Shown here one piece after another: positions 36,001 to 39,000 of a stretch of 64,000 bases of DNA; the first letter of the stretch is position 1; every line of letters begins with the position of its first letter. The stretch lies in the NCBI RefSeq assembly GCF_057098645.1, contig NZ_CM169472.1; one strand, given 5' to 3'. The position numbers were made by a program.

Positions 36001-39000
36001 GCGGTTGCCAGACGATCCGGAATAATGCTCCTGCGCGCCCATGAACTGAAATGTGTCGGGCGGTTTGATGATACCTGGTTTCCATTCGTTCTCGATGCCG
36101 CACCGTAATATCCTGATGCCGGAATATCCGGATCTTCTGCCGGCGCGTTAGTGGCGGTATTGACGCCGTTACCGTCTGTCATGAAGGGCACAAAATAAAC
36201 GCCCTCACTCTCCCTGTTTTTGTACGCCCCGTAAATGGTGTTGTACTGGGTGCCGTAGGTATTTTTCCAGTAATACGTCGTGTCACCACAAATCCACGGC
36301 ACATCTGCAGCACTGCCACCATGGCACTGCGCGTTAAACACGGAGAGGTCAGCACGAAACTGTGCCAGCATGGCTGTAAACAGCGCAGGTTGCTGTGCGT
36401 GGGTGGCGGCGCTCATGTCAAACTCTCCCTGCATCCAGCACACCGCCAGCAACACATTTTTCGGGTTCTTCTGTAATGCAGCTTTAGTGCGCGCAATCAG
36501 GTCCTGATATAACGGTTTACCCACACCCCAGCGCGCCGAATCCTGGCTGGCCCCCGCGTCCGCACTGAATGTCCCCTCCGCGCCCTGGGTGAATGCCGAA
36601 CCACCACGACAGCATGGTACCAGCAGGATCCCCGCGTTATTCGGGATATACGGAAGCAGTTTTTTGGCAATATGTAAGCCCTGGCCGACACAGCCGTACT
36701 GCCCTTTGCTCAGGTCTGCCTTCGGATGATTCAGCGTACTCATATCCTGCACATCATGCAGGCAGTGGTCGGCCGGAATAATATCGTTATATCTGCAGGC
36801 AGCCCCACCCGGCGTAACTGTACTGCGGCGCGCCAGCTGTTTAATGCGCGGATCCGGAGCATCGTATGAATCCGGCAGCGGAAGCCCTTCACCGTAAGCC
36901 ATGGCATTGGACTGCCCGGCCAGTACGATGACGTAGTACCAATCCGGCTCAGTTGCACCACTGACCACCACATCACCTTCTGCTGTAATCGCCTGCATCA
37001 GGGTATAAGGGGTTATGGCCACCGGACTACCAAACGGCTGCCAGCCCTCTTTCAGTTTGTGTGTCAGCTTTTCCGCAAGGTCTGACGGCGACGCCGCCCT
37101 GACAACATCATAATGTTTAAATGTCATTATTCCTCCCGGCCGGGATAGTGTATTAAATCAGATATGGAGTGGGCTGTAGTCCGGAAGCCTGAATGACACA
37201 CGGGGACTACAGCCCAAGAAATGAAAAAAGGCCACGCAGTTGCGCAGCCTGATAAACCCTGGTTAAAATCCACACGATAACAACACAACAATATCAGTAT
37301 CTCATGCTATTGCCCGAACCCATTCGGGCATTTTTTACCCATAAAAAATGCCCCTCCGGAGAGGGGCATGTTTGCATGCACATTCTTTTTCTTGCATGGT
37401 GCCGGGTGCCTCCCGGTGAATTCAGTATCAGCACCTGAATCCGCGATTATCACATATACCTGGTTGCTGATTGCCCCTCCGCACAGGGGGATTCACCATG
37501 CAGTAGTATTTTTAATAAACAGTAAACAAAAAAATCAAGCATTATGCAGGCTGTTTCTTTTTATCACCGGCCACAGCAATACCACAATGCCGCAGACCAG
37601 AGCGCCATCAGTCAGTACCAACATTATCCTGCTGGTGAAATCCATCATCACCATCACTAAAAGCAGGATCACAACAGCAAGCAGACACAGTTTATAAAAC
37701 AATGTTCAGAAAACGCATTCAGCATGCCTAAGGTTCTATTCCTACGAATAGCCAACTTGCAACTTAAAATATTATTTATGCAGCCAATTAAATTCTGGTC
37801 CTTACAATATCAACCTGAAGATTCTTATCTTGTGCTGATTGATAAATCACAAACCTTTTACTACCTGCATTGAAAGAAGTAGACAAAACCAGACAATTAT
37901 CATAACGAGCAAGAACATAATACCAACCATCATTATAATTAATCATTTCATATTCTTTCTTAAACTGCGGTTTGTAATATCCTGTCAGAAATGAAAAAAG
38001 CCAGAAATATGCCACAAAAGCAATCATCACAATCTCAAAAAAATGTTTTTTATAAATGCCTTATCATAGAAGCATGATACCGATAAAAATCGCCCATAAG
38101 ATCTTATCGAAATTGTGACCGCCAGCGCAATCGCTGCTGACAGTAGCAAAAGAGGTACCTGAATCTTCTGTCTCAATATAGAAAACTCAATAATTGCCGG
38201 CACAAACAATAATTCCACAGCAAAATAAAGGCGAAATACATTTAGCTCTTGCATAGAATGTTTTCTTTTCACTGCGAAAAAGAATACAACACCAATACCC
38301 CAACCGATAAGAAATATAGCAATGACGATAACTGCAAAAAATAAACTTCTGGCAACATCATCAACACCTGCACCTACAATCCACCATGGGAAGCCGTAGT
38401 AAAAAGAAGTACCCCATCCATAGAAATAAGCACTCCCCCATCCAAGGCATCCCATGTAGGCAATAAAAAGTGAAGAACTCCTGAGCAGCGCACCATCCTT
38501 CATAACCACCCCAATACAAGATGATAACATTGGCTTACAACTCATAACAAAAGCAATTCAATGCCGTCAAGAGATTACAGGCTAAAAAAACTCTATTACA
38601 TTGCAGTCAGCATGTTTACTACACAAATACAATTCAGAGCATAAAAACTACTCGGCGGCAGGTTATTGAGACTCATCAATGACATGTAAAAAACGCCCAT
38701 TATTGGTGTCAAGTTTCCCCAAAGTTATTCAAAAAGTCAATATTATGCCGTTAATATGTTGCCATCCGTGGCAATCATGGCGCTAACGTGTGATCGCATT
38801 CAAAATGTTGTCTGCGATTGACTCTTCCTTGTGGCATTGCACAACCAGAGCGTCATACAGCGGCTTAACAGTGCGTGACCAGGTGGGTTGGGTAAGGTTT
38901 GGGATTAGCATCGTCACAGCGCGATATGCGGCGCTTGCTGGCATTCTTGAATAACCGACGCCTTTACATCTTCCGCACTCTTTCTCAGCAACTATCCCCC

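What the first reader, a model, noticed from the sequence alone, without database searches (positions are those of the whole stretch)
37788..38782. AT-rich two-gene membrane-protein module between antiterminator Q and the late terminator (the position stx occupies in Stx phages)
Directly downstream of a lambda-type Q gene and upstream of a minus-strand terminator hairpin (37343-37369), nanS-p and the lysis cassette sit two translationally coupled genes (172 aa polytopic membrane protein, 80 aa small protein). Their GC content is much lower than the surrounding phage genes and I recognise no family. If the late promoter lies between Q and these genes and the hairpin is the tR' equivalent, they would be transcribed constitutively in the lysogen without Q, the usual arrangement for lysogenic-conversion, superinfection-exclusion or abortive-infection cargo. 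This is the best candidate in the window for an undescribed phage-defence or membrane toxin/immunity pair.
Basis: partly seen in the sequence, partly recalled or inferred. Interest (0 to 1): 0.72.

Follow-up and report, generated by a model that had tools for sequence, protein, structure and literature searches.

The report
Frameshifted TfpB-family prophage membrane gene
The supposed pair of coupled membrane-protein genes after the phage Q gene is one already-catalogued membrane-protein gene of unknown function (TfpB family, also in phage 434) that a single missing base has split in two, so it is a broken cargo gene rather than a new defence or toxin/immunity pair.

Summary
The two ORFs exist, are AT-rich (GC 0.37 against about 0.51-0.55 in the flanking genes) and sit between a lambda-type Q gene and nanS-p plus the lysis genes. 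They are not two genes. The window lacks one A in an A7 run (38046-38051). Restoring that base gives a 247-aa ORF identical, except P158A, to WP_001302581.1 and to phage 434 CPT_434_68.

Of 681 complete E. coli genomes with the locus, 668 carry the intact allele and 16 carry a frameshifted one, which PGAP marks as a pseudogene. All diverged homologues (E. coli, Salmonella, Citrobacter, Klebsiella, Yersinia and others) are single ORFs of about 238 aa.

The family is catalogued as Pfam PF27470 "TfpB" and phrog_1521, with no known function. It includes Salmonella STM1630. There are no hits to defence-system models and no solved or viral fold relative.

The "late terminator" hairpin is the 3' end of STnc100.

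No terminator lies between it and the gene here, so Q-independent read-through is plausible but untested. Phage 434 has a strong terminator at that spot.

Verdict: ordinary and already known, low interest.

The parts
38783..39406 (-). Lambda-type antiterminator Q gene (207 aa).
   Evidence: ORF. Annotated 'antitermination protein' WP_001235472.1 in identical loci. Its 3' end aligns with lambda Q.
38699..38740 (-). Late promoter pR' with overlapping qut. The -35 is TTGACT (38740-38735), followed by a 17-nt spacer and the -10 GAAACT (38717-38712). The inferred start is near 38704, and a -10-like pause element AATAAT lies at 38704-38699.
   Evidence: Near-identity to lambda and mEp234 pR'/qut up to about +10 of the transcript. 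Coordinates read. Promoter activity was not tested. The -10 differs from lambda TAAATT at two positions.
38640..38664 (-). Degenerate remnant of the terminator that precedes the gene in phage 434. This is also where homology to 434 begins.
   Evidence: The 434 hairpin folds at -13.3 kcal/mol with a T8 tail (z -4.4). The window version has a 4-nt deletion and folds at -3.5 kcal/mol (z -0.3). The whole leader 38520-38710 is no more structured than shuffles.
37788..38530 (-). TfpB-family (PF27470, phrog_1521) inner-membrane protein gene, inactivated by a frameshift. The annotated start is 38530 and the conserved family start (MKDG) is 38503.
   Evidence: PGAP marks the same A6 allele 'frameshifted' in E. 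coli C7 and O145 RM8995.
38046..38051 (-). A6 homopolymer (A7 in the intact gene), the site of the -1 frameshift. It falls in the predicted cytoplasmic loop between TM4 and TM5. A C-to-G change unique to this window at 38059 gives P158A.
   Evidence: Allele counts. Loop assignment.
37535..37702 (-). DUF3927 ('TciB-like') small membrane protein of 55 aa with two hydrophobic segments. It is the second gene of the cassette.
   Evidence: Pfam PF13064 E=1.6e-13. phrog_1470 E=2.7e-19. PGAP and 434 annotations.
37337..37527 (-). STnc100-family sRNA element.
   Evidence: Rfam RF02076, 144.7 bits against a gathering score of 47, E=1.7e-33. Hairpin -21.4 kcal/mol followed by a T-run.
37275..37336 (+). 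AgvB anti-GcvB sRNA gene, antisense to the late operon, with its own terminator at 37311-37330.
   Evidence: Rfam RF02702, 96.5 bits against a gathering score of 56, identical to the consensus. Terminator.
37229..37250 (-). Second minus-strand intrinsic terminator, upstream of nanS-p.
   Evidence: -15.9 kcal/mol, T-run.
35274..37127 (-). nanS-p (SASA-family carbohydrate esterase with DUF6645), followed by a class II holin, a YdfR-like gene and an IS-interrupted endolysin.

Best explanation
Shown:
- The interval holds one gene, not two. It is a copy of a TfpB-family (Pfam PF27470, phrog_1521) polytopic inner-membrane protein, 238 aa from the conserved start and 247 aa as annotated.
- The gene is broken by loss of one A from an A7 run. 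That leaves an N-terminal fragment (the 172-aa ORF) and an out-of-frame C-terminal remainder (the 80-aa ORF).
- Together with the adjacent DUF3927 gene it forms an AT-rich cargo cassette. The cassette is inserted right after the pR'/qut promoter of a lambda-type Q, in a lambdoid prophage integrated at ssrA.

Inferred:
- The intact protein has five helices, N-terminus in and C-terminus out, with a roughly 55-residue beta-domain in the periplasm.
- It is a host-expressed lysogenic-conversion envelope protein rather than a virion, lysis or defence component.
- In this Q arrangement it would be transcribed by read-through from pR' without Q as far as the STnc100 terminator. Elsewhere it depends on its own promoter or on Q.
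- In this window the gene is a pseudogene, or the base call is wrong. At most it makes a 4-helix fragment.

The biochemical activity of the family is unknown. My guess is an envelope or LPS-related role, and I give that guess about 0.3.
For: Frameshift:
- Alignment with three intact copies.
- Repair by one A gives WP_001302581.1 with the single change P158A.
- 668 of 681 genomes that carry the locus have the exact intact segment, and 16 have the A6 allele.
- PGAP labels A6 copies 'frameshifted'.
- The exact 172-aa and 80-aa products are absent from a collection of about 15 billion proteins.

Single-gene family:
- 35 homologues at 39-94% identity, all about 238 aa, are conserved across the break and into the C-terminal domain.
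- Distant homologues at 12-30% identity have the same architecture.
- The PHROG match covers residues 26-247 at E=1.9e-154.

Architecture:
- AF2 model with pLDDT 77.6 and pTM 0.70: five long helices plus five strands.
- Hydropathy and charge distribution.

Cargo behaviour. The same family sits:
- at Q-lysis junctions behind three different Q types;
- beside eltAB and estB on ETEC plasmids;
- beside sseJ as Salmonella STM1630;
- beside lpxR;
- beside iroBC and bor.

Host expression:
- STM1630 has its own mapped -10 box and is expressed in S. Typhimurium 4/74. The authors picked it from RNA-seq data for a macrophage test. They cite another study for attenuation of its mutants in calves and chickens (PMC6785131).

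Transcription signals.
Against: - No experiment bears on this locus. Promoter use, read-through and any phenotype are all inferred.
- A single-base homopolymer difference could be a sequencing or assembly error. In that case the gene would be intact.
- The pR' -10 (GAAACT) is weaker than lambda's, so read-through may be slight.
- Rho-dependent termination was not assessed.
- Salmonella STM1630 deletion had no effect on replication in macrophages. A hypermotility phenotype from a screen was later questioned as a possible polar effect.
- The adjacency to lpxR may reflect only a shared cargo hotspot.
Confidence: 0.85

Rival explanations
1. One reading: a functional two-gene module, with a 172-aa membrane toxin or effector and an 80-aa partner. 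The two would be translationally coupled and act as a phage-defence or toxin/immunity pair.
For: The ORFs overlap by GTGA. They sit at a cargo position in a prophage. The A6 allele recurs in 16 complete genomes, and the split halves have their own PHROG families 14371 and 3985. The break falls in a loop between TM4 and TM5, so both pieces could in principle insert into the membrane.
Against: 668 of 681 genomes and every diverged homologue encode one ORF. PGAP calls the A6 copies pseudogenes. The sequence ahead of the GTG/ATG shows no evident ribosome-binding site. There are no PADLOC hits. The window's own allele is found nowhere else.
Confidence: 0.04
2. The intact TfpB-family protein, with or without the DUF3927 protein, is a prophage superinfection-exclusion or abortive-infection membrane factor. 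It would be expressed in the lysogen.
For: It is a prophage-encoded polytopic inner-membrane protein at a cargo site, with no terminator between pR' and the gene in this arrangement. A distant homologue lies in a variable island beside icd, next to an AAA_23/AAA_21 ATPase pair. The DUF3927 PHROG is filed under 'moron ... TciB-like inhibition of cell division or resistance to colicin'.
Against: No PADLOC model matches. Many family members are stand-alone chromosomal genes with no phage around them, in Salmonella, Pasteurellaceae, Neisseria and Moraxella. STM1630 carries its own host promoter. There is no fold similarity to any known exclusion protein. Only 2 phage genomes (3 of 50,697 phage records) carry it.
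Confidence: 0.15
3. It is a late-operon accessory of lysis or release. It would be transcribed only under Q antitermination together with nanS-p and the holin, and would act on the envelope at the end of infection.
For: In phage 434 a strong terminator separates the late promoter from the gene. In the Stx-like arrangement a terminator follows Q and STnc100 precedes the gene. The gene always lies upstream of nanS-p and the holin when it is in a phage.
Against: There is no similarity to holin, antiholin, spanin or endolysin families. The family persists and is expressed where no lysis genes exist. It is absent from nearly all sequenced lambdoid phages.
Confidence: 0.1

Closest known systems
Phage 434 CPT_434_68 'putative membrane protein', E. 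coli WP_001302581.1, Pfam PF27470 (TfpB), phrog_1521
   Same: The same gene. It is 98-99.9% identical at the DNA level, and the repaired protein differs by one residue. It has the same DUF3927 neighbour and the same place between Q and nanS-p.
   Different: The window copy has lost one A and is out of frame. Phage 434 uses a Q82-type Q and keeps a strong terminator ahead of the gene. The window has a lambda-type Q and only a degraded remnant of that terminator.
Salmonella Typhimurium STM1630, between sseJ and steB
   Same: A family member of 238 aa at 46% identity with the same architecture. It is AT-rich acquired DNA next to virulence cargo, and its function is unknown.
   Different: It is a stand-alone chromosomal gene with its own promoter and no prophage around it. 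It is expressed by the host (PMC6785131). It has no DUF3927 neighbour.
Cargo at the Q-to-S junction of lambdoid phages (stx in Stx phages; established knowledge)
   Same: The position is the same: after Q and pR' and before nanS-p and the holin. A homologue occupies exactly the stx slot after the methylase and tRNA genes.
   Different: It is not a secreted toxin. It is an integral membrane protein of unknown activity, and here there is no terminator directly after pR'.
Prophage membrane exclusion proteins (lambda RexB, P22 SieA/SieB), recalled from memory as a functional analogy
   Same: They are prophage-encoded polytopic inner-membrane proteins that could be made in the lysogen.
   Different: No sequence, profile or fold similarity was found. 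The gene lies in the late region, not the immunity region. No exclusion phenotype is known.
Lambda pR'-6S RNA-tR' unit
   Same: The promoter and qut are homologous up to about +10.
   Different: Homology stops there, and no terminator follows within the leader. The first strong terminators come about 1.3 kb downstream, at the end of STnc100.

Membership tests
TfpB family (Pfam PF27470 / phrog_1521) | Full-length sequence match to the family profile. | tested here: met
   phrog_1521 E=1.9e-154 over residues 26-247. All 104 homologues carry a precomputed PF27470 hit. The profile search recovers the family. PF27470 itself is absent from the local Pfam copy, so the Pfam match is indirect, made through homologues.
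TfpB family (Pfam PF27470 / phrog_1521) | Conserved N-terminal aromatic/glycine motif (AY..LGWGSAYFYGWG.S.YYGFPWW), several transmembrane helices, and a C-terminal helix plus small beta-domain. | tested here: met
   Alignments. AF2 model. Hydropathy.
TfpB family (Pfam PF27470 / phrog_1521) | One uninterrupted ORF of about 238 aa. | tested here: not met
   The window has a -1 frameshift at 38046-38051. It is a disrupted member of the family.
DUF3927 (PF13064) / phrog_1470 'TciB-like' | Profile match over the whole small protein. | tested here: met
   PF13064 E=1.6e-13, model positions 7-50 of 53. phrog_1470 E=2.7e-19.
Two-gene toxin/immunity or toxin-antitoxin pair | Two separate genes conserved together as a pair across relatives. 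| tested here: not met
   The halves are one ORF in 668 of 681 genomes and in all diverged homologues. No conserved partner appears across contexts.
Known anti-phage defence systems (PADLOC-DB 2.0) | Match to a defence-protein model. | tested here: not met
   Zero families for either protein at E up to 1.
Lambdoid late-region cargo ('moron') at the Q-S junction | It lies between Q/pR' and the lysis genes, has deviant base composition, and is present or absent independently of the flanking phage genes. | tested here: met
   Position. GC 0.377 against about 0.51-0.55. The same cassette lies behind lambda-type and Q82-type Q genes, and most lambda-Q phages lack it.
Lambdoid late-region cargo ('moron') at the Q-S junction | Expression in the lysogen independent of Q. 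| not testable with these tools
   Only sequence signals are available. pR' is present and no terminator lies in the leader. Transcript mapping is needed.
Holin / lysis proteins | Match to a holin, antiholin, spanin or endolysin family. | tested here: not met
   No such hit in PHROGs, NCBIfam or Pfam. The real class II holin is at about 34909-35124.

The most novel reading that the evidence does not exclude
The intact TfpB plus DUF3927 cassette is a Q-independent lysogenic-conversion module driven by pR' that changes the cell envelope. One version has it working with the lipid A deacylase LpxR, which is repeatedly found beside it. Another has it blocking phage or colicin entry. The A7 tract would then act as a slippage-prone on/off switch.
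Probability: 0.1. Interest if true: 0.5.

Novelty: already known. Interest (0 to 1): 0.2.

Why it matters
It matters little for this window: the gene is a broken copy of one that is already catalogued, although uncharacterised. The family itself is a modest open question. It is a conserved membrane protein that turns up beside LT, STb, SseJ/SteB, LpxR, PmrD, the iro locus and Bor, and in the slot that stx uses. It is present in about one in eight complete E. coli genomes (681 of 5,426), and no function has been assigned to it. The contrast between phage 434 (terminator before the gene) and this prophage (terminator lost) offers a natural test of whether late-region cargo can switch from Q-dependent to constitutive expression.

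Tried and rejected
- Local Pfam-A scan of the 247-aa protein: nothing below E=0.4. The family is newer than the local library.
- NCBIfam: only a spurious CrgA hit at E=0.43.
- PADLOC: nothing.
- First AF2 model from 35 close homologues: too poor to use, pLDDT 58.7. It was replaced by a model built on 54 sequences including distant ones.
- Foldseek against BFVD: nothing at E up to 0.001.
- Foldseek against AFDB50: family members and other uncharacterised or generically named membrane proteins only; no characterised relative.
- Literature searches for DUF3927, TciB, TfpB, PF27470, 434B and LpxR with 434 found nothing relevant. 'TfpB' in papers refers to an unrelated Acinetobacter pilus ATPase.
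- Origin of the family name. My recollection is that it comes from an ORF in the Moraxella bovis pilin inversion region. I could not verify this. The only support is that a Moraxella caprae homologue exists.
- An internal promoter. The scan's only candidate near the start (38550-38521) would place the transcript start around the annotated start codon (38530), though still upstream of the conserved family start (38503), so it was not relied on. A TTGACG motif conserved with the ETEC plasmid and 434 copies has no convincing -10. It is left as a candidate only.
- Looked for a DUF3927 remnant after Salmonella STM1630 and after the copy beside the iro locus. None was found.
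Full report
**What is in the sequence**

- The interval is AT-rich. Sliding GC falls to 0.31-0.41 while the flanks stay near 0.5. The cassette 37535-38695 has GC 0.377, against 0.508 for Q, 0.553 for nanS-p and 0.502 for the whole window.
- Upstream on the minus strand is a 207-aa lambda-type Q (38783..39406).
- Downstream are a strong hairpin plus T-run at 37369-37348, a second terminator at 37250-37229, nanS-p, a class II holin, a YdfR-like gene and an IS-interrupted endolysin.
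- A tmRNA gene at 746-1108 shows that the prophage sits at ssrA. In O157:H7 PA20 a largely collinear but more degraded element lies at that site and also carries espW and espM2.

**One gene, not two**

- Megablast against 5,426 complete E. coli genomes found the 2.2-kb interval at 99.9% identity, but with a length of 2,202 rather than 2,201 bases. A single 744-bp gene is annotated across both ORFs.
- Alignment with O157 PA20, phage 434 and phage 2B8 shows three differences: an upstream T/C change, a C-to-G change at window 38059, and loss of one A from an A7 run. The run is A6 in the window, at 38046-38051.
- Inserting one A restores a 247-aa ORF identical to WP_001302581.1 except P158A.
- The 'ATGA-type coupling' is therefore only the place where the shifted frame hits a stop. 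That stop sits beside an internal GTG-ATG, which encodes Val-Met in the intact protein.
- I used 91-92-nt probes, for which a single difference drops identity below 99%. With these, 668 of the 681 genomes carrying the locus hold an exact intact segment, and 16 hold an exact A6 segment. None holds the window's own A6-plus-G allele.
- PGAP marks A6 copies as 'frameshifted' pseudogenes, behind both a lambda-type Q (strain C7) and a Q82-type Q (O145 RM8995).
- The exact 172-aa and 80-aa products are absent from a collection of about 15 billion proteins.
- I cannot tell whether the missing base is a true mutation or a homopolymer sequencing error.

**The family**

- The intact protein hits phrog_1521 at E=1.9e-154. 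The two halves also hit small PHROGs (14371, 3985) that evidently derive from other frameshifted copies. All are labelled 'unknown function'.
- A search of 5.8 billion proteins found 104 relatives, all carrying Pfam PF27470. Later look-ups name that family TfpB, and one cluster member is annotated 'protein tfpB'.
- Full-length relatives of about 238 aa occur in E. coli, Shigella, E. albertii, Citrobacter, Cronobacter, Klebsiella, Enterobacter, Salmonella and Yersinia at 39-94% identity. Conservation runs straight across the break and into the C-terminal part.
- A profile search of 1.84 billion representatives added full-length relatives at 12-30% identity with the same layout. Foldseek against AFDB50 places such relatives in Pasteurellaceae, Neisseria and Moraxella. 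All are uncharacterised.

**Structure**

- The first AF2 model was poor (pLDDT 58.7). A model built on 54 sequences reached pLDDT 77.6 and pTM 0.70.
- It shows five long helices (10-36, 47-78, 89-111, 116-136, 155-181) followed by five short strands (184-235).
- Hydropathy and the distribution of Lys/Arg fit N-terminus in, C-terminus out, with the small beta-domain in the periplasm. This topology is inferred, not shown.
- The frameshift falls in the predicted cytoplasmic loop between helices 4 and 5.
- PADLOC, NCBIfam and the local Pfam-A gave no informative hit.

**What travels with it**

- In every close copy examined, a 52-55-aa DUF3927 gene follows after about 85 bp. These copies are the window, O157 PA20, phage 434, phage 2B8, strain C7 and O145. 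The gene matches PF13064 at E=1.6e-13 and phrog_1470 'TciB-like'.
- Diverged homologues lack this neighbour, so the pairing is specific to this lineage.
- The family recurs next to acquired virulence cargo:
  - A 68%-identical copy lies in a Stx-phage-like late region, in the order Q, methylase, tRNA-Met, tRNA-Lys, TfpB, LpxR, sometimes PmrD, nanS-p, holin.
  - Copies lie beside lpxR in phage 434, O145 and Citrobacter rodentium.
  - Copies lie beside eltAB and estB on ETEC plasmids.
  - Copies lie beside iroBC and bor.
  - The Salmonella copy is STM1630, between sseJ and steB.
- More distant members are stand-alone chromosomal genes.
- Only 2 phage genomes (3 of 50,697 phage records), 434 and 2B8, carry it.

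**Published evidence on STM1630**

- The function of STM1630 is unknown. It has its own mapped -10 box, which is disrupted in ST313. The authors chose it from RNA-seq data for a macrophage test, and it is expressed in strain 4/74.
- Its deletion does not affect replication in macrophages. The paper cites another study for attenuation of its mutants in calves and chickens (PMC6785131).
- A hypermotile phenotype came from a screen (PMC4219756). It was later questioned as a possible polar effect (PMC4534456).

**Transcription signals**

- The end of Q and the pR'/qut region are nearly identical to lambda up to about +10. The -35 is TTGACT, the spacer is 17 nt, and the -10 is GAAACT against lambda's TAAATT. 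A -10-like AATAAT stands where lambda has its pause element.
- Homology to lambda stops there. The leader down to the start codon has no terminator and is no more structured than shuffled sequence.
- In phage 434, which has a Q82-type Q, a strong hairpin with a T8 tail (-13.3 kcal/mol, z -4.4) lies between the late promoter and the gene. The window keeps only a remnant of it, with a 4-nt deletion (-3.5 kcal/mol).
- In the Stx-like arrangement, a terminator follows Q and an STnc100 element precedes the gene.
It remains untested.

**The hairpin and the sRNAs**

- The hairpin is not a bare tR'. It is the 3' end of an STnc100-family sRNA at 37337-37527(-), which scores 144.7 bits against a gathering score of 47.
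- An AgvB anti-GcvB sRNA gene lies antisense to the late operon, immediately downstream at 37275-37336(+).

**Mechanism and verdict**

- With confidence 0.85, the feature is a frameshift-disrupted copy of a catalogued, uncharacterised inner-membrane cargo gene, with a DUF3927 companion.
- The intact protein is most likely a host-expressed envelope protein of lysogenic-conversion type. Three things point that way: the gene persists and is expressed where no phage remains, it has a periplasmic domain, and it keeps company with envelope and virulence cargo. Its activity is unknown.
- A role in superinfection exclusion (0.15) or in late lysis (0.1) cannot be excluded.
- The two-gene toxin/immunity reading is effectively refuted (0.04).
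- Novelty: already known. Interest: low.

Noticed in passing
window 37337-37527 (-): STnc100-family sRNA element (Rfam RF02076, 144.7 bits). In related loci it sits either after or before the TfpB gene (L003, L025 against L023/L024).
   Followed up: partly
window 37275-37336 (+): AgvB anti-GcvB sRNA gene, identical to the Rfam consensus (96.5 bits). It lies antisense to the late operon and has its own terminator at 37311-37330. There is also a weaker sub-threshold AsxR-like match.
   Followed up: partly
L001 (phage 434), L005, L006, L022-L024: TfpB-family genes lie next to the lipid A deacylase gene lpxR in four different arrangements, once with pmrD as well. This may be a functional link or only a shared cargo hotspot.
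   Followed up: partly
L010-L012 (ETEC plasmid contigs): A 59%-identical TfpB homologue lies about 0.9 kb from eltAB (heat-labile toxin), divergently oriented, with estB (STb) nearby. This suggests the LT locus carries a remnant of a lambdoid late region.
   Followed up: no
window 38640-38664 against L001 3943-3968: The terminator that precedes the cassette in phage 434 is degraded here by a 4-nt deletion and substitutions, exactly at the recombination joint between the lambda-type pR' and the cassette.
   Followed up: partly
window 746-1108 (+): The tmRNA gene ssrA (tag ANDENYALAA) marks the prophage attachment site. The window's prophage is more complete than the one at the same site in O157:H7 PA20.
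   Followed up: partly
window 41754-43526 (+): An AT-rich 590-aa ORF (TTG start, Ser/Thr/Asn-rich N-terminus) with no NCBIfam match. The collinear O157 PA20 locus has an IS30 fragment and a bamE paralogue there instead.
   Followed up: no
window about 33770-34510: The endolysin gene is interrupted by an insertion sequence (IS3-family orfA-like ORF at 33846..34172), so the prophage's lysis cassette is defective.
   Followed up: no
L014/L015 2176-3815: A distant TfpB homologue sits alone in an island beside icd. Next to it is a two-gene AAA_23/AAA_21 ATPase plus 167-aa unit that looks like a defence system.
   Followed up: no
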